In this document: piece by piece, positions 9,239-50,156 of the stretch
Numbering within the stretch: position 1 is the first letter of the stretch
How the letters are laid out: each line of letters begins with the position of its first letter
Source: Bacteroidaceae bacterium
GTDB taxonomy: Bacteria; Bacteroidota; Bacteroidia; Bacteroidales; Bacteroidaceae
Direction: 5' to 3'
Assembly (NCBI GenBank): GCA_024398475.1
Contig: JAKSJB010000005.1
Location: 2,182-66,181, forward strand
DNA length: 64,000 nucleotides
The notes under the pieces: generated by a model
What the model was told of the DNA's origin: nothing
The model's input: the letters and a program-made list of their open reading frames with translations, nothing else
The model's database searches: none
Position numbers and translations under genes: made by a program

Positions 9239-9329
9239 TGCAGTAATTATTTATTCAGTTCTGATGAAATTAAACAATATGCGGGAAAATCCCCACATTA
9301 CAGACAACAAATATCATGCCAAGGACACA

Positions 9330-9659: not shown

Positions 9660-9779
9660 AAAGGTATCAGGTAATTAAATGAGGTATTAAGTAATAAGGA
9701 TAAAAATATTCTATATGCAAAACAGAAGCCCGCCAACCCATACTAAAGTATGAACCTGCGGACTTCAGTTATGTTACGA

Positions 9780-36080: not shown

Positions 36081-36158
36081 TTTGCGTTTGCGTAGGCGTA
36101 GCCTTTTGCGTTTGCGTTATCGTTTGCGTAGGCGTAGCCTTTTGCGTTTGCGTTTAAC
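36081..36158. repeat. GCGTTTGCGT word array (reverse orientation of the AACGCAAACGC family)
   Basis: GCGTAGGCGTAGCCTTTTGCGTTTGCGTT occurs twice, 35 nt apart. It is the reverse complement of blocks at 52893-52990, 54665-54728, 55614-55756 and 58881-59024. Confidence 0.85.
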
Positions 36159-36336: not shown

Positions 36337-36730
36337 ATTTATATTTCTATGTACTTACTGGAATCAGCACGCATTTCCCCTCATTAGCCTACCATATTGC
36401 ATTTCCATCCCAAAGTGTCCATTTTCGCCCCACCCCATCATCGTGACATCAATTTTACACACAGCTGATACACAGTGTTTTATATCAAAGAAACACCCAT
36501 ATCCGTTATACTCACCTCATAAGTCCGTAACAGGCCAGTTATAAGTCAGTACTTAGTCAGTAATGAAAGCCAAATTACGCTGGAAGTAAAATTACACATA
36601 AAACGTGCGTAATGTTTTCCTCTCATATGCAATATTTGAGGTTGATTATTGGGATATGACTACTTGTACTATTTACCTACATTTTTACTTTGCTTTTTAT
36701 TTACTTTTCCTACGCTGTTCCTTTGCTCAT

Positions 36731-36894
36731 CCTCCGCTGATCCTCCGCTGCTCCTATGCTCTTCCTCCACACCAAACTCGAACCAAACTCGATGCAAATT
36801 CGAACTGGCTCTGCTATTTTATCGACTTTGGTTCGAGTTTGGTTCGAATTTGCTTCGAGTTTGCAACGGACTTATTGCGGAGGTACAGCGGAGG
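36731..36894. repeat. long imperfect palindrome of CCTCCGCTG and CAAACTCGAAC words
   Basis: The left arm is 36731-36805 and the right arm is 36831-36894. By hand, about 27 of 34 positions match in the inner arms. Confidence 0.7.
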
Positions 36895-37066
36895 TAAAGC
36901 AGAGGTAAAGCAGAGCATTTTATTACCTATTTTACTATTTTGTACCACATGGCACAATGGCACAACTGGCGCAAACAACGTTCTGTTGCATAAACCTCCA
37001 AACAAGAAAATGAAACAAATTTGAATTTTTTTGTGCAAAATATGTTTTGATTAAAATAATTTTACT

Positions 37067-37519: not shown

Positions 37520-37527
37520 TATCTTTG
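37520..37527 (+). promoter_or_regulatory. -7 box TATCTTTG for the first small-protein gene
   Basis: This is an exact TAnnTTTG, 28 nt upstream of ATG 37555. Confidence 0.5.
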
Positions 37528-37554: not shown

Positions 37555-37776
37555 ATGGCAAGATTCATTATCACAACGAAACGCACGAAAAACAGCAACG
37601 GCATCCGCATAGAGCCAGGCATGTCCGTTGAAGTGGTCACCCAAAGTATAAACAACCCAGTCACCACCAATGGCGGTCAACCAGTAATCGATGCCTTCAT
37701 GCGCATCTACGGCATCGACATCAAGAAAGCCGGATGCTTAAACATGAATGAATTGGATGTTGAAAGAATCAGTTAA
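37555..37776 (+). CDS. conserved small protein, paralog 1 (73 aa)
   Basis: It is 59/72 aa identical to the product of 38380-38598, with many synonymous codon differences. It has its own -7 box. Confidence 0.75.
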   Translation: MARFIITTKRTKNSNGIRIEPGMSVEVVTQSINNPVTTNGGQPVIDAFMRIYGIDIKKAGCLNMNELDVERIS

Positions 37777-37787
37777 ACAATTGAAAT

Positions 37788-37964
37788 ATGCTTCGAGGTA
37801 CAACAACATTTAAGTGCGAAAAGTGCGGCCACAAATTCGTCGGTCCAGATTTCGAATGGAGGGCAACTTCACGAACTGCACCATTAACATGCCCGGAATG
37901 TGGCGGAACAGCATACGCGGTTCACGAAAGTTGGTTGAGAAAGATATCCAAACTATTGAATTAG
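37788..37964 (+). CDS. 58-aa zinc-ribbon-like protein (missed by ORF track)
   Basis: Hand translation gives MLRGTTTFKCEKCGHKFVGPDFEWRATSRTAPLTCPECGGTAYAVHESWLRKISKLLN. It has two CxxC pairs about 24 residues apart and starts 11 nt after the upstream stop. Confidence 0.55.
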   Translation: MLRGTTTFKCEKCGHKFVGPDFEWRATSRTAPLTCPECGGTAYAVHESWLRKISKLLN

Positions 37965-38073
37965 CCGTAACAACAAATCCAACCACTTTACAAACTAATT
38001 TGGTGGATTATTGGAAATTTAATGAGGGCAATGACATTCTTGACCAATAAATGTGAAGTAAAATAGTTCTACT

Positions 38074-38325
38074 ATGGCAACATTCTACTGCGAATACTGC
38101 GGACACAAGTTCGCTGACGTAAGGCAACTTGTAAACAGTACATGCTCAAACCATCCAGATGGTCCCAACAGAGGCAAGCACAAGCTCTACGAAGGAAGGG
38201 AGAAATCAAGTTACCTATGCCGTTTCTGCGGCCGTACTTTCCCCACAATCATGCAGATGGTCTATGCACCTTGCTCATGCCATCCCAAAGGATGCAACAA
38301 AGGACATCATTCACCAGCATTGTAA
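38074..38325 (+). CDS. 83-aa Cys/His-rich protein with internal tandem duplication
   Basis: It contains two ~35-aa repeats of CxxCGxxF(x9)CSxHPxGxNxGxH. Confidence 0.65.
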   Translation: MATFYCEYCGHKFADVRQLVNSTCSNHPDGPNRGKHKLYEGREKSSYLCRFCGRTFPTIMQMVYAPCSCHPKGCNKGHHSPAL

Positions 38326-38379: not shown

Positions 38380-38598
38380 ATGGCAAGATTTAAAATTACG
38401 ACAAAACATGTGAAGAACTGCAATGGTATTCGCATTGAGCCAGGAATGTCTGTGGAAGTAATTACGCAGTCTATGAGTAATCCTGTAACCACAAATGGTG
38501 GACAAATCGTTGTTGATGCTTTTTATCGTATCTACGGTATTGACATCAAGAAAGCAGGATGTTTAAGCATGAATGAATTAGATGTAGAACAAATGTAG
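38380..38598 (+). CDS. conserved small protein, paralog 2 (72 aa), first gene of the AT-rich operon
   Basis: It is a paralog of 37555-37776. Its stop lies 10 nt before the next start. Confidence 0.75.
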   Translation: MARFKITTKHVKNCNGIRIEPGMSVEVITQSMSNPVTTNGGQIVVDAFYRIYGIDIKKAGCLSMNELDVEQM

Positions 38599-38608
38599 GC
38601 TTTTACTT

Positions 38609-39100
38609 ATGCAAGATCAAATAAAAAAACAAATTAGAGGATTCATCGATCATTATATAAACGTAGAAGGATTGCCTTACCCTCAAAATGGGAGTTTAGA
38701 GAGGTTTAACTTATGGCATTTTGCTCATGTTTTTGAGGAAAAAATGGAAGTTCGATTAAATGACAGTCAACTGCAGAGGTGTAAGACTGTGGAGAATTTG
38801 GTACAAATGTGTTATTCTGTAGTAATTCTTTCTTCAAAAACTAGTATTGGTAGTTTGACGAAAGAATCATCAAAAAAGGAAAAAACAAAAGAGCAAGACC
38901 GCAGTTCTAATTCAAAGGAAAAAAAATCAACTATCGACAATGAACAAAGCCCTATTACAGATTCAGAAGACGATAAATGTGATATAGATTCCACACTCAA
39001 TGTTTTAAGGGCAAAAGCAAATGAAACAAAATCAGATATTTACGCAAGAATATTTAATAACACTAAAACAAAACGTAATGGACATTTTAAAAGATTTTAA
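38609..39100 (+). CDS. 163-aa protein: possible carrier-protein-like N-domain plus Lys/Ser/Glu-rich tail
   Basis: The N-terminal ~70 aa are patterned like an ACP/PCP (GSLERFNLWHFAHVFEEKMEVRLNDSQLQRCKTVENLVQMC versus DSLDTVELVMALEEEF..I......TV...I.Y). The rest is low complexity. It overlaps the next gene. Confidence 0.5.
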   Translation: MQDQIKKQIRGFIDHYINVEGLPYPQNGSLERFNLWHFAHVFEEKMEVRLNDSQLQRCKTVENLVQMCYSVVILSSKTSIGSLTKESSKKEKTKEQDRSSNSKEKKSTIDNEQSPITDSEDDKCDIDSTLNVLRAKANETKSDIYARIFNNTKTKRNGHFKRF

Positions 39101-40790
39101 TCAGCGCATTCAAAAAGCTGACGAATTGGTAACGTCTGTCTTACCAACCGGAGAAGTTTTGAACGACCTTTCCTTGAAAAAGGATGAAGCCTCAAAGACT
39201 TTAGAGAGAAACAAAGAAGTAAAAATCCCTTTTATAGGTGATTTCTCTGCAGGAAAGAGTTCACTTCTTAATGCATTCATGGGAGTAGATTTACTGCCGA
39301 CAAATCTTACACCAGAAACAGCTGTCTCATACCAGTTGTACTATGACACAAGAGAGCATCTCGTCATCGTACGTGGTGATGGTTCCACTGAAGAGGCTCC
39401 TGTTGATGCTATCAAATCGTTGAAACTTACCCCCAACGATATGGTGAATGTGTACGTAAACAATGACAAAATTCGAGAGCTCAATGCTCGAGGAATCGTC
39501 CTTGTTGATATGCCTGGAATTGATTCTGGCATCGAAGCACATAACAATGCCATCACCAAGTATTTGCAGGAAGGAACGATCTTCGTTATCGTCGCTGATG
39601 CCGAACAAGGTACACTTAGAAACAGTGCAATATCTTTCATTCGTGAAATTAAGCAATATAGTCTTTCCGCTGCAGTCTTAATCAACAAGGCCGACAAGAA
39701 GTCGCAGTCTGATATGCAGCAAAACATCCTGCCACACATCACAGATCAAGCAAAACGCTATATTGGCGAAGGAACCTTTGTAGGTGTAACATCTGCTTCA
39801 ACCAAAGAAACAGGAGCCGTTTCTATCATTCTGAATGATGTTGATGTAGAGTCTGCGATTAAGCAACGTTGCTCTGGTGCTGTTAATGGATACATCAACG
39901 ATGATATTACTGCTGTACAGACTAGAATTACCATAATCAACACCGGCAAAGACGAGTATGCAGAGAAGTTGGAACAACTTAAGAATGGTCGTGACAAAGC
40001 ATTGCGAAAACTGAAGGAACTCGATGAAAACGCACAACCTGTTGCTGACTCCGCACAGGATATTCTTGATGATGTCAGCAATGCTTTGAATGCACGCTCT
40101 TCTTCTCTGGCCAATCTCCTTTTCAGTAGCAACAATAACATGAATATGTTTAATGCCGAACTCCTGAATATCATTCGTCCGGTTATGCTGAACGCTTTCA
40201 AACGTGAGTTGACAGAGTATAGCACTGTTATAGGAGGGGCTGTCCAGGGCTTTGCAGTAGATGTTAATGACATATTGGCTGACAAGAACAACAAACCGTT
40301 GGATTACGCAAAAGAAATGGCGGGCAACATGTTTGGAGGCAAGGCTCTTGAAAACATGCTCAATGCTGGTATGAAAAAGTTAATGGAGCGCTGGGCTGAG
40401 AAGAAAGGACTTGTCACCCTTTTGGGCTGTCTCTCCAAAGTTATTGGTCCGGTAGCAACAATCATAGTCAACCTCATTCCAGACATTCTCTCCTTTATCT
40501 TTGGAAAGAGCCGTGAAGAAAAAGTGGAAGAAATACGCGCAAAACTCTCATCGGGCGTATTTGACCGTATTGTCGAAGGTTTACGTCCACAAGTAGTACA
40601 GATGCTTGCCGAGCAACGTACAAATGCTATGTCTGAAGCAGAAAAACTTGTAAACGAAGAAATTAAAAATTTCGATGCAGCCATCGAACAAGCCCAAAAT
40701 GAGCAGGAAAAGAATGCTCAGGAACGTGAGGTTGAAACAGGCAAACTTGTTCAAACTGTTCAAGAATTGCAAGCACTTCTAATAGCATAA
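39021..40790 (+). CDS. dynamin-like GTPase 1 (589 aa)
   Basis: G1 is GDFSAGKSSLLNA (39237-39260 plus following codons), G3 is DMPG and G4 is NKAD. A long helical region follows, and a hydrophobic segment LVTLLGCLSKVIGPVATIIVNLIPDILSFIFG lies near the C-terminus. An alternative start at ATG 39078 is possible. Confidence 0.85.
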   Translation: MKQNQIFTQEYLITLKQNVMDILKDFNQRIQKADELVTSVLPTGEVLNDLSLKKDEASKTLERNKEVKIPFIGDFSAGKSSLLNAFMGVDLLPTNLTPETAVSYQLYYDTREHLVIVRGDGSTEEAPVDAIKSLKLTPNDMVNVYVNNDKIRELNARGIVLVDMPGIDSGIEAHNNAITKYLQEGTIFVIVADAEQGTLRNSAISFIREIKQYSLSAAVLINKADKKSQSDMQQNILPHITDQAKRYIGEGTFVGVTSASTKETGAVSIILNDVDVESAIKQRCSGAVNGYINDDITAVQTRITIINTGKDEYAEKLEQLKNGRDKALRKLKELDENAQPVADSAQDILDDVSNALNARSSSLANLLFSSNNNMNMFNAELLNIIRPVMLNAFKRELTEYSTVIGGAVQGFAVDVNDILADKNNKPLDYAKEMAGNMFGGKALENMLNAGMKKLMERWAEKKGLVTLLGCLSKVIGPVATIIVNLIPDILSFIFGKSREEKVEEIRAKLSSGVFDRIVEGLRPQVVQMLAEQRTNAMSEAEKLVNEEIKNFDAAIEQAQNEQEKNAQEREVETGKLVQTVQELQALLIA

Positions 40791-40808
40791 AATAGAAGAC
40801 CGTCCAAT

Positions 40809-42491
40809 ATGAAACTGGATAACTTAAAGCAACAGTATAAAAATACAGGTCGCAAAAGTACTTCCGATATATTGAAAGTTGATAGATATGAGAATCCACA
40901 AGAGGCGTTGAATCTTGTGGCTCATATCTGTACAGCTGCGGCTGATATTGACCTTAGTGGTTGCACAGAATCTTTCTACAACATGCTCGGCAAAATACAA
41001 GATCTCTTTGAAGAAAAGAATTTTACGTTTGCAAACAAAGATTTCTTTGAAGACTGTGAGAATGTTGTTGCCGACATGGAAGATAGTGACGCGCGAATGA
41101 CTTTAACTATAGGCGTTGCTGGTGGATATAGTTCGGGAAAATCTTCATTTCTGAATGCACTTACAAATCTGGGGGACTTGTTACCAACAGGCATTGATCC
41201 CGTGTCTATTGTTAATACAGAAATTAACTGTAACCCTGATGCCACGCAAATCTCTGTCAGAGGGTGTAACATTAAGAATGATATCGTTTTACTTGACAAA
41301 GAAATTTTGGGCTGTATAAAACATTCTTCTAAGACAAAGGTGTTCTTGACTTCTGTTTTGAACAAGCTTACTCTTGATATTCCAGCTCCTGATTATCTTT
41401 GTAATGTTTGCTTTATAGATACTCCTGGGTACAATAATTCTAGTGCGGCAAATAAAGAAAATGGTGTGACAGATAAAGATACTGCACTTGAAGCAGTCAA
41501 ACGTGCTGATGCCGTCTTATGGTGTATAGATAGCGAAATAAGCACCATTACTGATACAGATTTTCAAATGCTTAAGACTTTAGATGTACCATATATTATC
41601 ATCTTTACAAAAAGTGACAAGAAGAGCAAAGATGAAATTTTGCACATTATGAGAGAAGCAGAGAAGGTCTGCAAGAAAAATATTGCCAGTAATTTACCTT
41701 ATGCCATAGTTGCCGCAACTTGTGCTTCCGGTAAAATAGAGTCAACGACGTTGGATGGTAAAGATTTATCACAGATATTAAGGCAATTAAAGAAAAAATG
41801 TGGCACTCATGATCTTCTTCAGTATTGCTGCAATAGAATAGAAGATTTGTTTACAGCGGAAATTCTTGTTTCAGAAGTAAAAATCAATGCCAATGAACGA
41901 CTTCGACAGAAATTGATTGAAAAGAAGAAAAGAGTCAATGGAGAAGAATTGGAAGAATTGGAAGACGAAACGGATCAAGTCAGAAGCACCATTAAAACAG
42001 AAAAAGACTTTTGTCATTTACTAAATGAGAAAAAAACTTTGATTCTACAGGAGGTCAAAGTTGCATGTACCGAGAGTTTGAAGGTGGTTAAACGTGTACT
42101 TGGTACACTTCAGCATCTAGACCATACCGAAGATAAAGATATATTTTCTGCTATTAGTGCTGATAACATGGGACGTTTTCTTGCTTGTTTCAGTACAGGA
42201 GTCGATATGACTTCGCTAAATAGAGACAAATATACTCCGATGACAGCAGCTGTTGCAAGTGGGAACAACGAAATGGTAAAGTTCTTAATCGAACACAATG
42301 TAGGAATTGACATACTTCGCGAAAAAGACGGAAGAGGATATAATGCTTTTGAAACAGCAGTGATGAATCATTATAAAGATATTTGTTCTCTACTTCTAAA
42401 TGCAGACCCGCAACTTCCTCGTTTTAGCCGTCCTGTTGTTGAATTGTCTCGTATGAATAACTTTGAACAATGGATAAAACAATATTCTTAA
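40809..42491 (+). CDS. dynamin-like GTPase 2 fused to C-terminal ankyrin repeats (560 aa)
   Basis: G1 is GGYSSGKSSFLNA (41112-41144), G3 is DTPG and G4 is TKSD. The C-terminus has ANK-like repeats (TPMTAAVASGNNEMVKFLIEHNVGID; GYNAFETAVMNHYKDICSLLLNADP) at about 42225-42420. Confidence 0.85.
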   Translation: MKLDNLKQQYKNTGRKSTSDILKVDRYENPQEALNLVAHICTAAADIDLSGCTESFYNMLGKIQDLFEEKNFTFANKDFFEDCENVVADMEDSDARMTLTIGVAGGYSSGKSSFLNALTNLGDLLPTGIDPVSIVNTEINCNPDATQISVRGCNIKNDIVLLDKEILGCIKHSSKTKVFLTSVLNKLTLDIPAPDYLCNVCFIDTPGYNNSSAANKENGVTDKDTALEAVKRADAVLWCIDSEISTITDTDFQMLKTLDVPYIIIFTKSDKKSKDEILHIMREAEKVCKKNIASNLPYAIVAATCASGKIESTTLDGKDLSQILRQLKKKCGTHDLLQYCCNRIEDLFTAEILVSEVKINANERLRQKLIEKKKRVNGEELEELEDETDQVRSTIKTEKDFCHLLNEKKTLILQEVKVACTESLKVVKRVLGTLQHLDHTEDKDIFSAISADNMGRFLACFSTGVDMTSLNRDKYTPMTAAVASGNNEMVKFLIEHNVGIDILREKDGRGYNAFETAVMNHYKDICSLLLNADPQLPRFSRPVVELSRMNNFEQWIKQYS

Positions 42492-42492
42492 C

Positions 42493-44691
42493 ATGAAGAT
42501 AACTAAAAAAAACTACAAAACTGCCTTCGAAAAATTATCATCGTTAATTGAAGGTATTCCGACTTCTGATAACTCAGAAATAAACGACGCCAAAAAGCGC
42601 ATCTCCGATGAATTGAGTAATCAGCGTAGCGGATGTGAAGAACTATTGCGTACCAATGACATACTTCGTATAGGTGTTGTTGGTCAGGTTAAAGCAGGCA
42701 AATCCTCCTTCTTGAATTCATTGATATTTGGAGGCGAAAATGTTCTTCCTCGGGCATCAACCCCTATGACGGCAGGTTTAACCATATTACAGTACGGGGA
42801 GGAAAACTCTTTTGATGTTGAGTATTACAATTCCTTGGAATGGCAATCATTCAAAGACAAGGATATTGAATACGCAAAGCATATAGCTGACGCACGTGCT
42901 GAGAATCCGGAGGCGACTGAAGATGAGTTGGCTAAAGAAATTGATAATGCTCTTCTTGCAGCGCATGAGCTGGTGTCTAAATGCAGCCGAAAGGCTGAAA
43001 GTTGTGTGCAGAAAGAATCGAAACATGACATACATCCTTTTAAAAGCATCTCAGAACTTCAAGATGTGTTGGAAACATATGTCGGTGCTGAAGGTGTTTA
43101 TACACCTATTGTTAAAAGTCTGACTATAAATATCCACGACGAAAGACTTAATGGTGTTCAAGTGATAGACACTCCAGGAGTAAATGACCCTGTAGTTTCG
43201 CGTGAACAGAGAACACGTGAATGTCTTCGTGGATGCCATGGTGTTTTCCTACTCAGCTATTCTGGACGTTTCTTTGATCAGGTGGATGTCTCGTTTCTTG
43301 TAAACCGCATTGGCGAGCAGGGCATTGGTACTATTGTAGTAATTGCAAGCAAATTTGATTCTGTTCTCCAGGATGTTGGTAACAAATTCCATGATGACTT
43401 ATATGGAGCTATATTAGATTGCCAACGCAGTCTTCGTGGTCAAATGGAACGCAATTTGGCTTCTTCTGAGTTTAGAGGTAGCAATCCAGAACTCGATTTC
43501 AGTTCAGGTATCGGTTTCTCTATATCGCATAAGGAAGAAAATCGACTTGACGATACGGAACGCAATGTTGTTGAACAGATGAGAAGATTCTTTCCAACTT
43601 TCTTTAGTAATAGCGCAGATTGTAAAGAAAATTTCAACATGTTGTCTTCTATTGATGACATTCGTGAAAATTATTTACAGAAGACTTTTATTGACAATAA
43701 AGAGAAAATCATTGCTAAAAAACTGCAAGATTACTTTGTCGGTTCAACAGCTAACATTAGAAAGATTGTTGAATCTAGACGTGAACGTTTGCAGCAGATG
43801 TTATCAGCGCTCAACGAAAATGATATTAAAGACTTAAAAAATCAACGTAAGCAATATCTTGACATCGTGGTCAATATAAGCAGTGACATAGAAAGTGTTG
43901 TTAAGCGTGCAGAACAACGTGCAGAGCAATCCGTAAAGAAAGCCCTTAATGGTTATTCTTTCAATGTGAGCAGAGTACCGACTACCTCAAAAACAGCATA
44001 TTGTAATCGAATATCAACATTATGGCGAAACAATAAGAGTTTTAGTGTAGATTACGAAGTCGTTGATATAAACAAACTCGCAACCAATCTTGAAGATGGA
44101 TTTAAGAGAGAACTAGAAAGGATAAATTCACTTTGGGAGAAAGAAAGTTCAGAAATTATTCAGCTTATTAAAGATACTATAGGAGATCTTATTGCAGAAA
44201 GGGAATCTGTTGACAAAGAAGGTAAACTGAATGTGCGTTTGTTGCGCAATATACTAAATGAAACCATTGATTCCATGCAAAATGGAACGACTCTGGACTT
44301 CTTTGAAGCCCAAGATAAATTTAATGAGGCTGTCACTTCTTGTCTTCAGGGACAAGATACCGTTAAAACATCATTCGGTCGCATGGAAGAGAATGCTGCC
44401 AAAAACGAAGTTCTTAAATCTGCGACAAATATAAAAGAACAGGTACAAAAATCCGTTTATTCTCTGCTAGATTCTATGCATACCGAAGTGCAGAAAGTTG
44501 TAAAGAAAGGAAGAGAAGATTGTTTGGCTGTCCTAACTGATAATAAAGAGATGTTTATTAGCACGATTAAAGACAGTATAACATCTTATTTAGATGAGCT
44601 TGAAGTTAGTCTCCAAAATAAGGAGATGAATATTTCGACTCTAAATGAAGCTATCAAACATCTAAAAGAATTGGAGAACGTCTTAAAATGA
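42493..44691 (+). CDS. dynamin-like GTPase 3 (732 aa)
   Basis: G1 is GQVKAGKSSFLNS (42682-42705 plus following codons), G3 is DTPG and G4 is SKFD. It has a helical C-terminal region of over 400 aa. Its start is 1 nt after the upstream stop. Confidence 0.85.
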   Translation: MKITKKNYKTAFEKLSSLIEGIPTSDNSEINDAKKRISDELSNQRSGCEELLRTNDILRIGVVGQVKAGKSSFLNSLIFGGENVLPRASTPMTAGLTILQYGEENSFDVEYYNSLEWQSFKDKDIEYAKHIADARAENPEATEDELAKEIDNALLAAHELVSKCSRKAESCVQKESKHDIHPFKSISELQDVLETYVGAEGVYTPIVKSLTINIHDERLNGVQVIDTPGVNDPVVSREQRTRECLRGCHGVFLLSYSGRFFDQVDVSFLVNRIGEQGIGTIVVIASKFDSVLQDVGNKFHDDLYGAILDCQRSLRGQMERNLASSEFRGSNPELDFSSGIGFSISHKEENRLDDTERNVVEQMRRFFPTFFSNSADCKENFNMLSSIDDIRENYLQKTFIDNKEKIIAKKLQDYFVGSTANIRKIVESRRERLQQMLSALNENDIKDLKNQRKQYLDIVVNISSDIESVVKRAEQRAEQSVKKALNGYSFNVSRVPTTSKTAYCNRISTLWRNNKSFSVDYEVVDINKLATNLEDGFKRELERINSLWEKESSEIIQLIKDTIGDLIAERESVDKEGKLNVRLLRNILNETIDSMQNGTTLDFFEAQDKFNEAVTSCLQGQDTVKTSFGRMEENAAKNEVLKSATNIKEQVQKSVYSLLDSMHTEVQKVVKKGREDCLAVLTDNKEMFISTIKDSITSYLDELEVSLQNKEMNISTLNEAIKHLKELENVLK

Positions 44692-45368
44692 AAAATGTAG
44701 TTGAAACAGCAAACAGTCTTTTGATTGAAAAAAGAGACGCTCTAGTTGATGAAGTTAAAGATAAGTTTTCATCAATAATAATTCCTTCGGAGAGCGAAAT
44801 AGATCAGGAAACCATGCATCCATGCATTTCTTCCCCTAAGACTGCATATTGGTCTATAGGAGGCGGTGTTGCACTACTTGCATTAGGTGCAAATATTGAC
44901 CATGGGAAGGTTTTGTCAATCGGGGTTGGAGTAGGAGCTATCATATTTGGTGCATTTAAGTTGTTTCATACAAGAGCCGATCAGAATGAGATTAACCAAA
45001 ATATCAAGCAAGTTGATATTAATCTTATAATGAGAAAAATAAATGACAACTATAATGAATTATATAGTTCTATTATGAACGAATGGGATGATGGCTTAAA
45101 TACAATCAAAGAGCAGGTTGTGTCATTGATAAACAATCTCTCACTTGACTCATCTATGCGTTCAAAAGCAATGAATGTTATTCGTTCTCGCTCCATAATC
45201 GAAGTTTCCACTCTTGATTTGCTTAACGACTTAAATCAAGCTGGTAGAGGAACTGGGTTGAATGCTTTACAGAATCAAGTGTCAATTGCAGAAAATGTAT
45301 TCATCCAAGCAATTAATACTGCTTGCCAAAAGCAGATGGACACGTATAATAGTTTGATGTCGATATAA
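44688..45368 (+). CDS. two-TM hairpin membrane protein (226 aa)
   Basis: It makes an ATGA start/stop overlap with the preceding GTPase gene. Two hydrophobic segments (YWSIGGGVALLALGANI and VLSIGVGVGAIIFGAFKLF) are separated by a short loop and flanked by helical regions. Confidence 0.7.
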   Translation: MKNVVETANSLLIEKRDALVDEVKDKFSSIIIPSESEIDQETMHPCISSPKTAYWSIGGGVALLALGANIDHGKVLSIGVGVGAIIFGAFKLFHTRADQNEINQNIKQVDINLIMRKINDNYNELYSSIMNEWDDGLNTIKEQVVSLINNLSLDSSMRSKAMNVIRSRSIIEVSTLDLLNDLNQAGRGTGLNALQNQVSIAENVFIQAINTACQKQMDTYNSLMSI

Positions 45369-45373
45369 ATTCT

Positions 45374-45820
45374 GTGCAAACCAAAATACAGCCTATGCAA
45401 CTATTAATTCCTTTTACAGAATCTACGGACTTGATCAAGACTAAGAGCGGGCAGAATATAAACCTGAGTACAGTTGACGGGAAAACGGTAAAGGTGGGGT
45501 ATCGGATTCAGAAACGGATTCCTATACTTGGTGATATTTCCAAGGAGTTTTCGCTAAATCTCACATACAAGGGATTGGTCAACGAGGTTCTGAAACTTTC
45601 ATATTCAGCTGATGCCGTTGGTATTGATTTAATCATCAAGGGATTGCTGGCTATTGTTTCGTCTCTTGTGGAACAGAAGGTGGTGGAGATTGGTGAGAAC
45701 AATCTATTGTTGGTTCATCTGGACAAAATTGAAAACGTACACAAGGCATTGCAGCAGATTGATGTGGAAGATATACGATTCCAAGAAGGTATGGCTGTAG
45801 CTGACTTTCATATAAAATGA
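45374..45820 (+). CDS. hypothetical protein (148 aa from GTG 45374, 141 aa from ATG 45395), last gene of the AT-rich operon
   Basis: It starts 5 nt after the upstream stop, and its composition matches the operon. No motif was recognised. Confidence 0.6.
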   Translation: MQTKIQPMQLLIPFTESTDLIKTKSGQNINLSTVDGKTVKVGYRIQKRIPILGDISKEFSLNLTYKGLVNEVLKLSYSADAVGIDLIIKGLLAIVSSLVEQKVVEIGENNLLLVHLDKIENVHKALQQIDVEDIRFQEGMAVADFHIK

Positions 45821-45868: not shown

Positions 45869-46274
45869 ATGCAGAAGACAACGCTTGAATTTTCACATAA
45901 TGCCCGTACAACTTATACGGCGGTAAAGAATCTGTTCAGGAAGCACACTAAGTTCAGTAGTGTGAAGACGAATGACGAGTTGTTTATTGTTGAAGCGCGT
46001 CATGGAGCATGGATCTCTCCATTCAGAAGAATCAGTAAAGATGAAGGTGGCGGCTACAAGTTCCACGACCTGCAAGGTTGTTGTGGAGTCCTCTTCACGT
46101 TCATGGCTCAACCTTTTGAATTTCGGTGCCAACAAGAGTAACATCTCCGACCTTAGCGACTAAATCAGCAATGAGGTATATAAGTTGATGCAACCTGGGG
46201 AGATTCCCATGAGCAATCAGGGAAACGACCATTCCACAATAAGGATTGTGCCACCTGAAATCAGATATAAATAA
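45869..46274 (+). pseudogene. possible decayed gene (frameshift near 46025 and in-frame TAA at 46161)
   Basis: ORF 45869-46141 and ORF 45972-46163 join sensibly at ...EARHGAWISPF / (S)EESVKMKVAATSSTTCKVVVESSSRSWLNLLNFGANK... The second frame stays open for 36 more codons after its TAA. Confidence 0.35.
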
Positions 46275-46306: not shown

Positions 46307-46891
46307 ATGTATCCATTGACATTTCAGCCTTTTGTAGGTCGGGATTATAGTTCCGGCGGTATGTTCGGCAAACGAATATTGGTGTTGGGGGACAGTCATT
46401 ATGGTTCTGTTCCCGAACCAACCATTACTCGGGATGTAATCGGATGGTATCTGGATGATAGTGTGGAACGCGAGGGGTGGATGAATACTTTCCTGAAATT
46501 TGAACGTTCACTGGTGGGACATGAGACTGACCGGACAGAGACAAGTCGTATATGGAACTCGTTATTGTTCTACAACTACCTGCAGGTATTGTTGTCTGGT
46601 CCGCGTGAAGCAGGTACAGACAAGCAGTATGCGGATTCAGCGGATGCATTCTTTGAGGTGATTGACCAGTATAAGCCAGAAGTTATCATCGTCTGGGGAA
46701 AGCGCGTCTGGCAGCACCTTCCGTGGAATGGATGGTGCGAGGGAAATCCTCTGACCGTTGACGGATATGATGTGGATAACGGGACATATACACGTCGTGA
46801 TGGAGGCAAGGTCAAGGTGGTGTGTGTGTACCATCCGTCTGTAGGTTATTCCTGGGATTATTGGTACAAAGTGATAAGTTTATTCATATAA
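46307..46891 (+). CDS. hypothetical protein (194 aa), possibly UDG-fold
   Basis: The order and spacing of ILVLGDSHYG, FYNYLQ, VIIVWGK and VYHPS resemble the motif layout of the uracil-DNA glycosylase superfamily. This is weak and by eye. Confidence 0.55.
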   Translation: MYPLTFQPFVGRDYSSGGMFGKRILVLGDSHYGSVPEPTITRDVIGWYLDDSVEREGWMNTFLKFERSLVGHETDRTETSRIWNSLLFYNYLQVLLSGPREAGTDKQYADSADAFFEVIDQYKPEVIIVWGKRVWQHLPWNGWCEGNPLTVDGYDVDNGTYTRRDGGKVKVVCVYHPSVGYSWDYWYKVISLFI

Positions 46892-46898
46892 TGCCAAA

Positions 46899-46982
46899 TC
46901 AACTTTCGCAAGTTTCTGACTTGCTCAGTTTCTTTCAGTAGATCAGGAGTTAAAGGGAGTTATGGGAGTTAAAGGCTTTGGA
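46899..46982 (-). repeat. partial leader-repeat element (3' module, reverse orientation)
   Basis: TCAACTTTCGCAAGTTTCTGACTTGCTCAGTTTC...CAGGAGTTAAAGGGAGTTA is the reverse complement of the 3' ends of 14661-14967 and 26461-26715. Confidence 0.8.
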
Positions 46983-47066: not shown

Positions 47067-47115
47067 TTATTCGACAAAATTACCTAGGAAACGCGTTCTT
47101 ATTCGACAAAATTAC
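47067..47115 (+). promoter_or_regulatory. two direct copies of TTATTCGACAAAATTAC upstream of fic
   Basis: The copies at 47067-47083 and 47099-47115 start 32 nt apart. The second abuts a TATTTTTG -7 box (47117-47124), 19 nt upstream of ATG 47143. Confidence 0.6.
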
Positions 47116-47142
47116 TTATTTTTGCAGAAAATTTAATTCTTA

Positions 47143-48618
47143 ATGGAAAAAAAATCTTCTGTTTCAACAATAAGAGAGGTTGTGATGGCTACATCAGACA
47201 AAAGTCTCTCTGCCGAAATAACAGCAATGCAGAAAGAAGGTACAATTCGTAAGATTGCGCCAAAGGTTTATACTACCAACATGGATGATGAAGCTGAAGC
47301 AATAATACGCAGAAATATATACTTCATACTGGGTCAGCTATATCCTCAGGCTGTCATAAGTCACCGTTCTGCATTTGAGTTGAAACCAACTGAAGAAGGT
47401 GACATATTCCTTACCTATACATATACGAAAAACATCAATCTTCCAGGGGTGAAAGTACACCTTCAGGAAGGACCGAAAGGAACAGACAGGGATATGCCTT
47501 TCATTGAGAATCTGTTTATTTCAAGTACGGAAAGACGAATGCTTGAAAACCTTCAGCCTGCAAGAACAAGAGGGGGCGTTTCAAAATGCTTACCTCGGAC
47601 ATTTGTGGAAGATCAACTTGAACGGATACTTCAAGTGAATGGTGAAAGAGGTATCAACAAGTTCCGTGACAATGCTCGCAGCATGGCTGATGCATTGGGT
47701 ATGCAAAAGGAATTTGACATTCTGAATTCTATCATCAGTGCTCTGCTAACAACAAAACCAAGCAACATCCTTTCTTCCAAGTTAGCAGTTGCCAGGGCAA
47801 TGGGCAGTCCGTATGATGTAGAGCGTTACAGATTATTCGGCACTTTATTTGATGCCTTGCACAATCAATCCTTTGCTGATATTGATGAACCAAATCAGAC
47901 TACAACTGAGTTTCGTAATTTTGCTTTCTTTGAGAGCTACTTTTCCAATTATATTGAAGGAACCGAGTTTGAGATAGAGGATGCTTGGCACATTATTGAG
48001 ACAGGAAAACCGATGCCGGCACGCAATGCTGATTCTCATGATGTATTGGGTACTTTCCAGATTGTTGCAAGCCGAAGAGAAATGCAGAGAATACCATCTT
48101 CCTGTGACGAACTTATTGACATTTTACAGGAACGTCATCGTCTAATGATGTCTGCACGACCAGAGAAAGATCCCGGTATGTTCAAGATGCTGAACAATCA
48201 TGCCGGTGACTCACATTTTGTTGATTGCACCCTTGTTCGTGGAACTCTGAAAAAAGGCTACGAATACTATCAGGCTCTGGAACATCCTTTTGCCCGTGCC
48301 TTATTCATGCTTTTTATGATAAGCGAGGTGCATCCATTCAATGACGGCAATGGTCGTATATCAAGAATAATGATGAATGCAGAAATGGTTCATGCAGACC
48401 AAGCAAAGATAATCATTCCTACAGTATTCCGTGAAGACTATCTTAATGCTCTCCGTCGCCTGACAAGAAAGGGCGATTCTACAGTATTGCTTCGTGCTAT
48501 GTCCAGAGCACGGCTTTTCAGTTCAAAGATTAGCGGTGATGACTTTGAAACAACAAAAATATTCCTTGAAAGCTGCAATGCATTCAAGGATAATGAAGGC
48601 TATATTTTGAAGTTTTAA
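47143..48618 (+). CDS. Fic-domain protein (class II, self-inhibited) with wHTH-like N-terminal region
   Basis: The Fic motif HPFNDGNGRISR lies at 48331-48366. The inhibitory-helix motif SNYIEG, matching (S/T)xxxE(G/N), lies at 47944-47961. The N-terminus (EGTIRKIAPKVYT) is reminiscent of the AbiEi-type wHTH. Confidence 0.9.
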   Translation: MEKKSSVSTIREVVMATSDKSLSAEITAMQKEGTIRKIAPKVYTTNMDDEAEAIIRRNIYFILGQLYPQAVISHRSAFELKPTEEGDIFLTYTYTKNINLPGVKVHLQEGPKGTDRDMPFIENLFISSTERRMLENLQPARTRGGVSKCLPRTFVEDQLERILQVNGERGINKFRDNARSMADALGMQKEFDILNSIISALLTTKPSNILSSKLAVARAMGSPYDVERYRLFGTLFDALHNQSFADIDEPNQTTTEFRNFAFFESYFSNYIEGTEFEIEDAWHIIETGKPMPARNADSHDVLGTFQIVASRREMQRIPSSCDELIDILQERHRLMMSARPEKDPGMFKMLNNHAGDSHFVDCTLVRGTLKKGYEYYQALEHPFARALFMLFMISEVHPFNDGNGRISRIMMNAEMVHADQAKIIIPTVFREDYLNALRRLTRKGDSTVLLRAMSRARLFSSKISGDDFETTKIFLESCNAFKDNEGYILKF

Positions 48619-48625: not shown

Positions 48626-48674
48626 TTATTCGACAAAATTACCCCAATAAGCCGTAGTTATTCGACAAAATCAC
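48626..48674 (+). repeat. two more copies of the TTATTCGACAAAAT(T/C)AC motif downstream of fic
   Basis: The copies at 48626-48642 and 48658-48674 again start 32 nt apart. They are followed by AATTTTTGTCAG, which resembles the upstream TATTTTTGCAG. Confidence 0.7.
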
Positions 48675-48737
48675 CAATTTTTGTCAGATTTTCAAAGTAT
48701 ATTGGAAAAAACACGATGGTTTTCTCTATGTATGGGG

Positions 48738-50132: not shown

Positions 50133-50156
50133 AGTTGTACGTTTTATTTAAGCATG

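What the first reader, a model, noticed from the sequence alone, without database searches (positions are those of the whole stretch)
38380..45820. AT-rich seven-gene operon built around three tandem dynamin-like GTPases: candidate undescribed membrane-surveillance/defence system
Seen: seven co-directional ORFs lie at 38380-38598, 38609-39100, 39021-40790, 40809-42491, 42493-44691, 44688-45368 and 45374-45820. Their junctions are +10, -80 (or -23 from the internal ATG 39078), +18, +1, -4 (ATGA) and +5 nt, so this is one tightly coupled operon. Three consecutive products (589, 560 and 732 aa) each have an N-terminal GTPase. Each carries G1 GxxxxGKSS[LF]LN, a following LP[TR]...T segment, G3 D[MT]PG and G4 NKAD/TKSD/SKFD, then several hundred residues of helix-type sequence. 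Spot G+C counts of single 60-nt lines give about 27-40% inside the operon against about 48-57% in flanking genes.

Known: this motif set and architecture define bacterial dynamin-like proteins (Nostoc BDLP, B. subtilis DynA, ETEC LeoA/LeoB/LeoC). DynA and a two-gene LeoA/LeoBC-like system (published as Dynamins, later called Eleos) have been reported to protect against phage.

Inference: this cluster is larger and composed differently. It has three separate DLPs, one fused to ankyrin repeats, plus a conserved 72-aa protein, a carrier-protein-like/low-complexity protein, a separate two-TM hairpin protein and a 148-aa protein of unknown function. It sits in an accessory island next to a Fic gene. 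I do not recall a described system with this gene complement.
Basis: partly seen in the sequence, partly recalled or inferred. Interest (0 to 1): 0.92.

Follow-up and report, generated by a model that had tools for sequence, protein, structure and literature searches.

The report
Triple bacterial-dynamin operon with membrane partner
This stretch of a gut Bacteroidaceae genome carries a horizontally acquired operon of three different dynamin-like GTPases plus a small membrane protein; the same four-gene module recurs in many Bacteroidota, is not the known two-gene dynamin anti-phage system Eleos, and is probably a membrane-remodelling machine used in phage or envelope-stress defence, though nobody has tested it.

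Summary
Seven tightly spaced co-directional ORFs lie at 38380-45820. Three are dynamin-family GTPases with intact G1-G4 motifs, and the block is low in G+C (0.38 against 0.45-0.48 in the flanks).

The "seven-gene system" reading is only partly right. Across related genomes the conserved unit has four genes:
- DLP1, a mitofusin/Cj-DLP2-like protein with a hydrophobic paddle.
- DLP2, a dynamin GTPase with C-terminal ankyrin repeats.
- DLP3, a BDLP/Cj-DLP1-like protein.
- g6, a ~220-aa helical-bundle protein with a Gly-rich membrane hairpin.

The gene order is kept in 37 of 37 Bacteroidota loci, and g6 follows DLP3 in 41 of 47. Loci without g6 also lack the ankyrin domain. The 163-aa and 148-aa genes are variable accessories.

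The 72-aa DUF6140 gene is a generic leader. Elsewhere it heads unrelated cassettes, including genuine Eleos (LeoA/LeoBC) and PADLOC candidate systems.

PADLOC and NCBIfam Leo models match the three DLPs only weakly, so this is not Eleos. More distant three-DLP operons occur in Helicobacter pylori, Campylobacter and E. coli IncF plasmids. I found no paper that characterises the module.

Best reading: an accessory, membrane-anchored three-GTPase dynamin machine, probably defensive. It is a new variant of a known kind, and its function is inferred, not shown.

The parts
37520..37527 (+). Bacteroides-type -7 promoter box (TATCTTTG), 35 nt before the upstream DUF6140 gene. Candidate start of transcription. 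No such box lies directly before g1.
   Evidence: Pattern TAnnTTTG found by script. This is a consensus match only; function is not shown.
37555..37776 (+). Upstream DUF6140 copy (73 aa). Probably resident, given host-like GC3 of 0.58. It leads a mini-cassette of zinc-ribbon ORFs.
   Evidence: Pfam DUF6140 1.2e-34. 74% nucleotide identity to g1. GC3.
37788..37964 (+). Possible 58-aa zinc-ribbon ORF (CxxC...CxxC). It overlaps, in another frame, the 78-aa GTG ORF at 37814-38050 that a gene caller preferred.
   Evidence: Translation; gene calls on L001. Which frame is real is not resolved.
38074..38325 (+). 83-aa double zinc-ribbon protein. Homologues sit directly upstream of DLP1 in two other loci (L005, L044).
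   Evidence: Weak zinc-ribbon Pfam/NCBIfam hits.
38380..38598 (+). g1: DUF6140 leader gene (72 aa) of the low-G+C cassette.
   Evidence: Pfam 1.7e-33. GC3 of 0.33 matches the cassette. DUF6140 lies less than 100 nt upstream of DLP1 in at least 9 other genome loci and directly upstream of DLP genes in 11 of 80 DUF6140-centred metagenome loci (a 12th has them about 2.9 kb downstream).
38609..39100 (+). g2: 163-aa variable accessory protein. The N-terminal ~75 residues are possibly ACP-like, with Ser29 at the DSL position. The C-terminal half is Lys/Ser/Glu-rich and low in complexity.
   Evidence: No Pfam, NCBIfam, PADLOC or PHROG hit. One partial homologue in L013. hhalign to the ACP domains of position-5 proteins gives E 0.008, in register.
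39078..40790 (+). DLP1: 570-aa dynamin-like GTPase of the mitofusin/BDLP/Cj-DLP2 type, with a hydrophobic paddle at residues 446-474. An alternative start at 39021 gives 589 aa.
   Evidence: Dynamin_N 5.2e-22. The family profile hits mitofusin-1 at 9e-11, BDLP at 1.3e-9 and Cj-DLP2 at 2.6e-8. The paddle is present in 33 of 40 orthologues. G motifs are conserved.
40809..42491 (+). DLP2: 560 aa. It has a conserved N-terminal region, a dynamin-type GTPase (about residues 100-310), a short helical region and C-terminal ankyrin repeats (about 455-540).
   Evidence: Dynamin_N 5.7e-11 and Ank_2 1.1e-10. The ankyrin region is retained in 39 of 41 orthologues. The family profile hits ankyrin structures at 1e-66. 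G motifs are conserved.
42493..44691 (+). DLP3: 732-aa full-length bacterial dynamin-like protein of the BDLP1/Cj-DLP1 type. It has a long helical stalk and a beta-hairpin tip (residues 497-524), and no hydrophobic paddle.
   Evidence: Dynamin_N 4.4e-23. The profile hits Cj-DLP1 at 1.1e-15 and BDLP at 1.5e-15. The AF2 model has pLDDT 84.9. Foldseek top hits are 5oxf_A (1.2e-13), SynDLP, BDLP and IniA over the full length.
44688..45368 (+). g6: 226-aa signature partner. An N-terminal helix and C-terminal helices form a bundle, interrupted by a Gly/Ala-rich membrane hairpin (about residues 54-95). Its start overlaps the DLP3 stop (ATGA).
   Evidence: A homologue lies 0-73 nt after DLP3 in 41 of 47 loci. 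137 clusters at 50% identity in 1.84 billion representatives. AF2 helices 2-28 and 111-225 are confident; the hairpin is low-confidence. No significant PDB fold match. No Pfam, PADLOC, NCBIfam or PHROG hit.
45395..45820 (+). g7: 141-aa variable accessory protein (148 aa from GTG 45374), function unknown. It fills the variable fifth position.
   Evidence: Homologues occur only in L009 (2e-10) and L031 (1e-5), in the same position. No family hit.
45869..46271 (+). Frameshifted remnant of another small accessory gene. Intact homologues occupy the fifth position in L034 and L038.
   Evidence: tblastn matches in two frames, 45869-46039 in frame 1 and 46029-46271 in frame 2.

Best explanation
The window carries one low-G+C, horizontally acquired cassette (g1 to g6, with trailing accessories).

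**The core is a four-protein machine.**
- DLP1 is a mitofusin/Cj-DLP2-like dynamin with its own hydrophobic paddle.
- DLP2 is a dynamin GTPase ending in ankyrin repeats.
- DLP3 is a long BDLP1/Cj-DLP1-like dynamin.
- g6 is a small helical-bundle protein with a Gly-rich membrane hairpin.

**Shown.**
- The domain identities.
- Conserved GTP-binding motifs in all three GTPases.
- Conserved gene order, with overlapping or near-abutting junctions.
- The full-length dynamin fold of DLP3.
- The paddle in DLP1.
- Strict co-occurrence of the ankyrin domain with g6.
- The distinction from Eleos profiles.

**Inferred.**
- The four proteins are made together and assemble into a heterotypic GTPase complex on the cytoplasmic face of the inner membrane. 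DLP1 would bind through its paddle. DLP2 would dock on g6 through its ankyrin repeats. DLP3 would pair with DLP1 as Cj-DLP1 pairs with Cj-DLP2.
- GTP-driven oligomerisation then tethers, remodels or seals membrane when the envelope is perturbed.
- The most likely trigger and purpose is phage infection. That would make it an accessory defence module working like Eleos or DynA, not like nucleic-acid-targeting systems.
- The variable genes around the core (g2, g7, Sel1-ACP proteins and others) would be modulators or sensors.
- DUF6140 is a shared leader gene of such cassettes, not a specific subunit.
For: **Domains and motifs.**

**DLP3 structure.** AF2 plus Foldseek place it with Cj-DLP1, SynDLP, BDLP and IniA.

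**Membrane contact.**
- The DLP1 paddle is present in 33 of 40 orthologues, and DLP2 and DLP3 have none.
- The g6 hairpin is present in about 36 of 43 homologues.
- The g6 bundle is modelled with confidence.

**Conserved unit.**
- Gene order is kept in 37 of 37 loci and g6 follows in 41 of 47.
- All five informative g6-less loci have an ankyrin-less DLP2, and every ankyrin-bearing locus with enough flank has g6.
- The ATGA and +1 junctions follow directly from the coordinates.

**Accessory or mobile status.**
- A low G+C and GC3 block.
- Two or three divergent copies in single genomes: UBA1769, H07631, H07650 and H07667.
- A decaying copy in Phocaeicola vulgatus, L043.
- Related three-DLP operons on E. 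coli IncF plasmids, in 5 of 5426 genomes.
- A strain-variable H. pylori island (PMC8935386).

**Defence association.**
- The Fic neighbour matches SoFic and PDC-S04 and has an AbiEi-like N-terminus.
- Strong matches among the 150 neighbour ORFs scanned (35 loci with flank listed) include PDC-S01, PDC-S27, AbiEii, ZorD/DpdE-type helicase and a genuine Eleos pair; WYL and mad2 also match.
- The slot behind DUF6140 is filled in other genomes by genuine LeoA/LeoBC/LeoB/LeoC (down to 1.6e-151), PDC-S29/S30, PDC-S48, IetA and HerA.

**Precedent.**
- Two-gene dynamins protect against jumbo phages and need both P-loops (10.1101/2022.05.11.491447).
- Papers retrieved report that DynA resists phage and needs membrane binding for defence (PMC8844932, PMC12998192). 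As summarised in 10.1101/2022.05.11.491447, it acts by delaying lysis.
- Cj-DLP1/2 form a heterotypic tethering tetramer (PMC6104087).
Against: - No experiment exists for any member.
- Defence-gene enrichment was not tested against a control. Many neighbours are housekeeping genes such as MutS2, shikimate dehydrogenase, UbiE, glycerate kinase and thioredoxins.
- PADLOC (2023) has no model for this module, and DefenseFinder was not run.
- Seven g6 homologues lack the hairpin, so membrane anchoring through g6 is not universal.
- The ankyrin-g6 contact rests on co-occurrence in few lineages, not on a structural or interaction test.
- PADLOC PDC families are only candidates.
- Only one viral contig carries the module.
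- Other bacterial dynamins serve non-immune roles such as vesicle release, drug tolerance and cytokinesis (PMC4159319, PMC6104087).
Confidence: 0.5

Rival explanations
1. A non-immune membrane-dynamics module. The three DLPs and g6 would repair or remodel the inner membrane under general envelope stress (antibiotics, bile, bacteriocins), or promote vesicle formation as proposed for LeoABC. There would be no dedicated anti-phage role.
For: - LeoABC deletion halves vesicle-associated cargo (PMC4159319).
- As cited in PMC6104087, IniA confers tolerance to isoniazid and ethambutol, and Cj-DLP1/2 is proposed to act in membrane repair.
- Many neighbours of the module are ordinary metabolic genes.
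- The core proteins contain only membrane-remodelling and protein-interaction domains, with no nuclease or NADase effector.
Against: - Distribution is sporadic, composition is low in G+C, single genomes hold several divergent copies, some relatives are plasmid-borne, and some copies are decaying. A general housekeeping function fits these poorly.
- The DUF6140 slot is shared with Eleos and PADLOC candidates.
- None of the three DLPs has a hydrophobic N-terminal segment that would suggest export toward the outer membrane.
Confidence: 0.27
2. An abortive-infection system in which g6 is the effector. The Gly-rich hairpin protein would oligomerise into a membrane lesion, and the three GTPases would sense infection and gate or insert it.
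For: - g6 carries GxxxG-like Gly/Ala-rich transmembrane segments.
- g6 is the only component without a known fold match.
- It co-occurs strictly with the ankyrin domain, a plausible regulator-effector contact.
- An apolipoprotein-L family protein is listed alongside three DLPs in an H. pylori island (PMC8935386).
Against: - Seven g6 homologues lack the hairpin altogether yet keep the helical bundle.
- A subclade functions without g6.
- Known dynamin defences (DynA, and Eleos as far as described) are not reported to kill the host.
- The AF2 hairpin is low-confidence.
Confidence: 0.1
3. It is simply Eleos (the LeoA/LeoBC 'Dynamins' system) with an extra duplicated gene, and therefore already described.
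For: - PADLOC LeoA and LeoBC models give weak hits to DLP1 (6.4e-14, 1.1e-8) and DLP2 (2.4e-9, 9.5e-7).
- All belong to the bacterial dynamin superfamily.
- Defence callers report a dynamin system in H. pylori genomes (PMC12003011).
Against: - The hits cover only the P-loop region (for example 17-79 of 559 positions) and reach at most 50 bits. DLP3 has no hit.
- NCBIfam LeoA/HP0731 scores 15.5 bits against a cut-off of 325.
- Genuine LeoA and LeoBC in locus L054 score 2.8e-92 (full length) and 2.1e-39, and sit beside the triple module as separate genes.
- The architecture differs: three DLPs plus g6 against two genes.
- PDB profile searches recover mitofusin, BDLP and Cj-DLP, and do not list LeoA.
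Confidence: 0.05
4. One reading: all seven genes form one fixed, co-evolving seven-component system.
For: In this window the seven ORFs are tightly packed, and g1-g6 share low GC3. Identical contigs carry the same set.
Against: - g2 was found in one other locus and g7 in two.
- The position after g6 holds at least 13 unrelated gene types, including Sel1-ACP, PP2C-like and small unknowns.
- DUF6140 heads at least 27 unrelated first-gene families elsewhere.
Confidence: 0.05

Closest known systems
Eleos / 'Dynamins' (LeoA + LeoBC; ETEC LeoABC)
   Same: - An operon of co-directional bacterial dynamin-like GTPases on accessory DNA.
- Both are found behind the same DUF6140 leader in Bacteroidales metagenome contigs, and side by side in L054.
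- The plausible function is shared: P-loop-dependent anti-phage action without a nucleic-acid effector.
   Different: - Two DLPs (one sometimes split) against three DLPs plus the dedicated partner g6.
- No ankyrin fusion is described for Eleos.
- Leo profile matches are partial and far below family level.
- DLP1 and DLP3 are nearer to mitofusin, BDLP and Cj-DLP by profile.
Campylobacter jejuni Cj-DLP1/Cj-DLP2 heterotypic pair (PDB 5owv/5oxf)
   Same: - These are the best structural and sequence relatives. DLP3 resembles Cj-DLP1 (1.1e-15 by profile; Foldseek 1.2e-13). DLP1 resembles Cj-DLP2 (2.6e-8).
- Both are tandem genes in one operon.
- An SLR (Sel1-like repeat) accessory gene recurs: cj0413 in C. 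jejuni, described as HcpA-like in PMC6104087 (its membership of the Sel1-like repeat family is my own knowledge), and Sel1-ACP proteins at position 5 in six Bacteroidota loci.
   Different: - The gene order is opposite.
- There is no third GTPase, no ankyrin domain and no g6-type protein.
- The Cj pair's function is also unknown; membrane tethering has been shown in vitro.
Bacillus subtilis DynA
   Same: A bacterial dynamin that acts at the cytoplasmic membrane. It responds to membrane stress and phage, and its defence depends on membrane binding.
   Different: - DynA is a single polypeptide fusing two DLPs, described as a housekeeping gene in 10.1101/2022.05.11.491447.
- The NCBIfam DynA model scores 37 bits against a cut-off of 1600.
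Three-DLP operons of Campylobacterota, Comamonadaceae (Acidovorax, Comamonas) and E. coli IncF plasmids (uncharacterised; noted for an H. pylori island in PMC8935386)
   Same: Three tandem dynamin-family genes whose products match DLP1, DLP3 and DLP2 respectively at 24-33% identity. They sit on accessory or mobile DNA.
   Different: - The order is DLP1-DLP3-DLP2-like.
- Under the crude ORF scan, no g6-like gene follows them.
- The E. coli version is followed by an 829-aa CFI-box-CTERM protein.
Mitofusin / Fzo1
   Same: - The DLP1 family profile hits mitofusin-1 best (9e-11).
- The idea of a dynamin GTPase working with a membrane hairpin flanked by helical-bundle segments parallels mitofusin's HR1-TM-TM-HR2 layout. 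That layout is recalled from my own knowledge.
   Different: Here the hairpin-plus-bundle (g6) is a separate polypeptide. No sequence or fold match of g6 to mitofusin was found. The analogy is a lead, not a test.

Membership tests
Dynamin superfamily / bacterial dynamin-like proteins | Large GTPase domain matching Dynamin_N above Pfam's gathering score | tested here: met
   79.1, 43.2 and 82.6 bits against a cut-off of 27 for DLP1, DLP2 and DLP3.
Dynamin superfamily / bacterial dynamin-like proteins | Intact G1 (P-loop), switch-I Thr, G3 DxxG and G4 [NTS]KxD motifs | tested here: met
   Present in all three proteins. Conserved at 90% or more in 40, 41 and 47 orthologues.
Dynamin superfamily / bacterial dynamin-like proteins | Helical neck/trunk stalk following and flanking the GTPase domain | tested here: met
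   Met for DLP3: AF2 pLDDT 84.9 with long helices at 403-486, 526-573 and 633-731, and full-length Foldseek matches to Cj-DLP1, SynDLP, BDLP and IniA. DLP1 was not modelled; its profile aligns to mitofusin-1 over residues 31-342. DLP2 has only about 140 helical residues before the ankyrin repeats, so it is an atypical member, and its stalk was not tested.
Dynamin superfamily / bacterial dynamin-like proteins | Membrane-binding paddle or anchor | tested here: met
   DLP1 has a hydrophobic segment at 446-474, present in 33 of 40 orthologues. DLP2 and DLP3 have none. g6 supplies a separate hairpin. This rests on hydropathy only.
Dynamin superfamily / bacterial dynamin-like proteins | Nucleotide-dependent oligomerisation and membrane remodelling | not testable with these tools
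   Needs biochemistry.
Eleos (LeoA/LeoBC) | Family-level, near full-length match to the LeoA and LeoBC profiles | tested here: not met
   The best match is LeoA at 49.9 bits, covering profile positions 17-79 of 559. DLP3 has no hit. NCBIfam LeoA/HP0731 scores 15.5 bits against a cut-off of 325. Genuine examples score 2.8e-92 (positions 10-554 of 559) and 2.1e-39.
Eleos (LeoA/LeoBC) | Two-DLP architecture (LeoBC, sometimes split, followed by LeoA) | tested here: not met
   Three full DLP genes plus g6, conserved in 37 of 37 and 41 of 47 loci.
Eleos (LeoA/LeoBC) | P-loop-dependent protection against phage | not testable with these tools
   Experimental. Shown only for the B. vietnamensis system.
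DynA (two-headed fused DLP) | Single polypeptide with two DLP units; NCBIfam NF052648 | tested here: not met
   37.4 bits against a cut-off of 1600. The genes are separate.
Ankyrin-repeat proteins (C-terminus of DLP2) | Ank repeat profile matches above cut-off | tested here: met
   Ank_2 scores 42.4 bits (cut-off 27.3), with Ank_4, Ank_3 and Ank also matching. The family profile hits ankyrin structures at 1.4e-66.
DUF6140 (PF19637), g1 | Full-length match above the gathering score | tested here: met
   114.9 bits against 27, covering positions 1-69 of 69.
Acyl/peptidyl carrier protein (PP-binding), g2 N-terminus | PP-binding profile match with Ser in the DSL motif at the start of helix II | tested here: inconclusive
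   No Pfam hit at E of 0.1 or better. hhalign to the ACP domains of the position-5 Sel1-ACP proteins gives E 0.008 over 32 columns, in register, and Ser29 is spaced as in DSLD. No structure model was made.

The most novel reading that the evidence does not exclude
A previously uncharacterised, widespread class of bacterial immune or membrane-guard machine built from three different dynamin GTPases.
- In Bacteroidota it has a dedicated membrane-hairpin partner that docks on an ankyrin-tailed GTPase.
- It is distinct from Eleos.
- It is exchanged as DUF6140-led cassettes in a Bacteroidales defence-cassette system.
- It has distant three-dynamin cousins in H. pylori, Campylobacter and E. coli plasmids.
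Probability: 0.4. Interest if true: 0.8.

Novelty: new variant of a known kind. Interest (0 to 1): 0.62.

Why it matters
**For dynamin biology.** Bacterial dynamins are usually described as pairs, and how they work in cells is largely open. A conserved three-GTPase module with a separate membrane partner offers a system for asking how heterotypic dynamin assemblies are built and targeted. It comes with a clean, testable prediction: ankyrin repeats bind g6. Related three-DLP operons on E. coli plasmids offer a tractable host.

**For phage defence.** If the module is defensive, it adds a second, architecturally distinct dynamin-based immunity type. It would be one that is common in gut Bacteroidales, where few defence systems have been tested against crAss-like and other gut phages.

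**For discovery.** DUF6140 precedes many unrelated cassettes, some of them known defence systems. That makes it a possible marker for finding new systems in Bacteroidales.

Tried and rejected
- **Eleos membership.** Rejected on profile scores and architecture.
- **Seven-gene conservation.** Iterative HMM searches over 82 loci found g2 in one other locus and g7 in two.
- **g6 identity.** No hit in Pfam, NCBIfam, PADLOC or PHROGs. Foldseek against the PDB returned only generic helical bundles (best E 0.66). A word-indexed homologue search with g6 alone returned only itself, and with a 40-sequence profile only five proteins. The AF2 alignment was therefore shallow.
- **g6 as a detached piece of DLP3.** In three loci the first HMM seemed to hit DLP3. 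This turned out to be weak similarity of the g6 helices to stalk segments (E about 1e-6), together with hairpin-less g6 variants. It is not a gene-boundary shift.
- **Strain variability of the island.** Exact look-up of the flanking PepP gave only a short contig that ends at the island edge, so this could not be tested.
- **Phage origin.** One IMG/VR contig, no phage GenBank record beyond a weak P-loop hit, and no PHROG hits.
- **RNA elements.** Rfam found nothing credible in 35-51 kb. The sigma-70 promoter scan was at shuffle level.
- **Defence-island enrichment.** Only a descriptive count was possible.
- **Literature.** Ten searches found no paper on a Bacteroidota triple-dynamin operon, DUF6140 or CFI-box-CTERM. 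Only open-access papers and bioRxiv were searched.

Full report
**1. The observation**

- Pfam assigns Dynamin_N to the 589-, 560- and 732-aa products at 5.2e-22, 5.7e-11 and 4.4e-23.
- The 560-aa protein has ankyrin repeats at residues 458-534, and the 72-aa protein is DUF6140.
- The 163-, 226- and 148-aa proteins match nothing in Pfam, NCBIfam, PADLOC or PHROGs.
- G+C is 0.379 over 38380-45820, against 0.450 and 0.476 in the flanks. GC3 is 0.23-0.39 for g1 through g6, against 0.50-0.66 in PepP, MFS, TilS and DUF6057.

Four refinements apply:
- DLP1 probably starts at 39078, giving a 23-nt overlap with g2.
- g7 probably starts at 45395.
- An eighth co-directional gene at 45869-46271 is frameshifted.
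- Directly upstream lie a second DUF6140 gene (37555-37776) and one or two zinc-ribbon ORFs, behind the only nearby Bacteroides-type -7 box, at 37520.

The source is a Bacteroidaceae MAG, GCA_024500545.1.

**2. What is conserved**

DLP3 has more than 1,980 homologues in the protein collection, many about 730 aa long at 44-47% identity. A pattern-seeded scan of one genome per species found 366 genomes with a relative, and I kept the best 80 loci.

I called ORFs in those loci and searched them with the window proteins and with iterated HMMs:
- Every Bacteroidota-type locus with at least 4.2 kb of upstream flank has DLP1, DLP2 and DLP3 in that order (37 of 37).
- A g6 homologue starts 0-73 nt after DLP3 in 41 of 47 loci with downstream flank.
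- Outside the two contigs identical to the window, g2 appears once (the N-terminal part only, in L013). g7 appears twice (L009, L031).
- The gene right after g6 is variable. Six loci have Sel1-repeat proteins ending in a clear PP-binding/ACP domain. One has a PP2C-like protein. Others have unrelated proteins of 100-150 aa.

The conserved unit therefore has four genes, not seven. A g6 profile finds 137 clusters at 50% identity among 1.84 billion representatives, almost all standalone proteins of 215-240 aa.

**3. The parts**

All three GTPases keep G1-G4 across 40, 41 and 47 orthologues, so none looks like a dead paralogue.

- **DLP1.** The family profile hits mitofusin-1 (9e-11), BDLP (1.3e-9), Cj-DLP2 (2.6e-8) and IniA. 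It carries a hydrophobic segment at 446-474 in 33 of 40 orthologues.
- **DLP3.** The family profile hits Cj-DLP1 and BDLP1 (about 1e-15). Its AF2 model (pLDDT 84.9) matches Cj-DLP1, SynDLP, BDLP and IniA over the full length in Foldseek. Its tip is a beta-hairpin, not a hydrophobic paddle.
- **DLP2.** It is atypical: an N-terminal conserved region, the GTPase, about 140 helical residues, then ankyrin repeats, which 39 of 41 orthologues retain.
- **g6.** It models as an N-terminal helix plus four C-terminal helices (pLDDT above 85) packed into a bundle. The bundle is interrupted by a low-confidence Gly/Ala-rich hydrophobic hairpin. No PDB fold match is significant. About 36 of 43 homologues have the hairpin and seven lack it.

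One pattern stands out. The loci that lack g6 (L018, L019, L021, L026, L051) all have a shortened, ankyrin-less DLP2. Every ankyrin-bearing locus with enough flank has g6. I infer that the ankyrin repeats and g6 act together, most simply by binding each other.

**4. Relation to known systems**

PADLOC's LeoA and LeoBC models touch DLP1 and DLP2 only around the P-loop and reach at most 50 bits. DLP3 has no hit. NCBIfam's LeoA/HP0731 model scores 15.5 bits against a cut-off of 325. Orthologues from Segatella, Flavobacterium, H. pylori, Campylobacter and E. coli behave the same way.

In contrast, locus L054 has a genuine Eleos pair directly upstream of its triple module. There LeoA scores 2.8e-92 over its full length and LeoBC 2.1e-39. 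The module is therefore related to Eleos at superfamily level but is not Eleos.

The literature describes bacterial DLPs as pairs, with LeoABC being two DLPs of which one is split (PMC4159319, PMC6104087). Eleos is described as a two-gene system.

More distant three-DLP operons, ordered DLP1-DLP3-DLP2-like, occur elsewhere, with no g6-like gene detected after them in a crude ORF scan:
- Campylobacterota, including H. pylori.
- Acidovorax and Comamonas.
- E. coli IncF plasmids, where three "dynamin family protein" genes precede a CFI-box-CTERM protein, in 5 of 5426 genomes.

An H. pylori island paper mentions "three dynamin-like proteins" descriptively (PMC8935386). I found nothing that characterises any of these operons.

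**5. Context and the DUF6140 leader**

In this window g1 shares the cassette's low GC3 (0.33), while the upstream DUF6140 copy is host-like (0.58). Each cassette therefore seems to bring its own DUF6140.

In the DLP3-selected loci, DUF6140 lies within 100 nt upstream of DLP1 in at least nine cases, and always on the same strand.

An unbiased sample of 80 DUF6140-centred metagenome loci gave the following:
- DLP genes lie downstream in 12 loci, 11 of them directly after DUF6140.
- In the 54 other loci with enough flank, DUF6140 is nearly always followed at 13-41 nt by a co-directional gene. These first genes fall into at least 27 unrelated families.
- Among 107 representative cassette proteins, PADLOC finds genuine LeoA (1.6e-151), LeoBC (4.4e-97), LeoB and LeoC, PDC-S29/S30 (2.5e-94), PDC-S48, IetA, HerA, WYL and mad8.
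- Pfam recognises little else in these proteins.

Among the 150 neighbour ORFs scanned from the triple-module loci, the picture is mixed. Some are defence-type: PDC-S01, PDC-S27, AbiEii, a ZorD/DpdE-type helicase, WYL and mad2. Others are plain housekeeping genes. No control was run.

The window's own neighbour is a 491-aa protein with an AbiEi-like N-terminus and a Fic domain. It matches SoFic and PDC-S04.

**6. Interpretation**

Shown:
- A horizontally acquired cassette.
- A conserved four-gene core made of three intact dynamin GTPases of different subtypes and a membrane-hairpin helical protein.
- Tight coupling of the genes.
- Co-variation of the ankyrin domain with g6.
- Distinctness from Eleos.

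Inferred:
- A heterotypic complex forms on the inner membrane, through the DLP1 paddle and through g6 as the anchor for DLP2.
- It performs GTP-driven tethering or sealing, by analogy with Cj-DLP1/2 and DynA.
- It serves a defensive purpose.

The defence reading rests on four things: the module's accessory and mobile behaviour, multiple divergent copies per genome, the shared DUF6140 slot, and precedent. It is circumstantial.

The main rival is a non-immune role in envelope stress or vesicle formation. An abortive-infection role for g6 is possible but weakened by the hairpin-less variants.

**7. Verdict**

The finding is real and worth following up, but it needs re-scoping. It is a member of a widespread, uncharacterised triple-dynamin-plus-g6 module, which is a new variant of a known kind. 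It is not a unique seven-gene system.

Limits of this work:
- ORF calling was crude.
- Some MAG taxonomic labels may be binning errors.
- The PADLOC models date from 2023.
- The g6 alignment used for AF2 was shallow.
- Defence association has no statistical control.
- The literature search covered only open-access papers and bioRxiv.

Noticed in passing
window 37555-37776 and 38380-38598; loci L087-L166: DUF6140 (PF19637, no literature found) behaves as a leader gene. In 80 DUF6140-centred metagenome loci it is nearly always followed at 13-41 nt by co-directional cassettes from at least 27 unrelated first-gene families. These include genuine Eleos genes and PADLOC candidates PDC-S29/S30 and PDC-S48, and most have no Pfam domain. 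Tandem DUF6140-cassette units occur in the window and in L039, L144 and L156. It may mark a Bacteroidales cassette or hotspot system.
   Followed up: partly
loci L018, L019, L021, L026, L051 versus the other Bacteroidota loci: Loss of g6 coincides with loss of the C-terminal ankyrin domain of DLP2, and these DLP2 proteins are only 415-570 aa long. This suggests a direct ankyrin-g6 functional link.
   Followed up: partly
loci L025, L032, L041, L042, L048, L059 (gene directly after g6): Proteins ending in a clear acyl-carrier-protein (PP-binding) domain occupy the fifth position. Most also carry Sel1 repeats (4 of 150 neighbour ORFs hit Pfam Sel1, 4 hit PP-binding), and L025 has two ACP-like repeats. 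The C. jejuni DLP operon also carries a Sel1-like HcpA gene. The window's g2 N-terminus may be a degenerate ACP-like domain.
   Followed up: partly
window 45869-46271: Frameshifted remnant of a small gene. Intact homologues (122-149 aa) sit in the fifth position of L034 and L038.
   Followed up: yes
window 37788-37964 and 38074-38325: Two small zinc-ribbon ORFs lie between the two DUF6140 genes. The 83-aa one has homologues directly upstream of DLP1 in L005 and L044. The 58-aa one competes with a 78-aa GTG ORF in another frame.
   Followed up: partly
window 47067-47152 / 48626-48711 and 46929-46972 / 50143-50186: 86-nt direct repeats, each containing TTATTCGACAAAATTAC twice, bracket the Fic gene. 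44-nt repeats (CAGGAGTTAAAGGGAGTTA...) bracket the Fic gene together with the minus-strand 464-aa ORF. They may be cassette boundaries or regulatory sites.
   Followed up: no
window 47143-48618: A 491-aa protein combines an AbiEi-like N-terminal domain with a Fic domain (PADLOC PDC-S04 2.1e-16, SoFic 2e-14, AbiEi 8.8e-6). It has its own TAnnTTTG box at 47117.
   Followed up: partly
window 48738-50132 (minus strand) and 46307-46891: The 464-aa ORF has no hit in any library. The 194-aa protein has only a weak UDG-like hit (E 0.02), but homologues at 50-56% identity recur 0.5-6 kb downstream of triple-DLP modules in L006, L008, L015, L024 and L037.
   Followed up: no
window 36085-36154 and 36729-36918: An 18-nt tandem repeat (CGTTTGCGTAGGCGTAGC-like) lies right after the PepP stop, with imperfect hairpins further on. 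The assembly of a related sample breaks at this edge (L083).
   Followed up: no
locus L086 (E. coli plasmid NZ_CP148279.1 44300-51888): An IncF plasmid operon of three 'dynamin family protein' genes (563, 724 and 405 aa) plus an 829-aa CFI-box-CTERM protein. It is present in 5 of 5426 complete E. coli genomes, always on plasmids, and offers a tractable relative for experiments.
   Followed up: partly
locus L054 51-3357: A genuine Eleos pair (LeoBC, cut by the contig end, then LeoA) sits directly upstream of a triple-DLP module. That makes five dynamin-like genes in a row.
   Followed up: yes
locus L043 (Phocaeicola vulgatus) 7820-9870; locus L051: DLP2 is broken into three ORFs in L043. In L051, DLP3 is split into two ORFs and DLP1 and DLP2 are short (415-417 aa). 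These look like decaying copies of the module.
   Followed up: no
locus L084 (IMG/VR contig 3300045988_160204) 9872-12585: The only viral-collection contig with DLP3 and g6 homologues. It may be a prophage-flanking region or a misclassified contig.
   Followed up: no
loci L087, L098, L100, L134, L139, L145, L157: A more divergent DUF6140-led variant. The DLP1-, DLP2- and DLP3-like GTPase domains are spaced differently, at about +0.1, +3.0 and +4.3 kb, with 23-39% identity to the window proteins.
   Followed up: no
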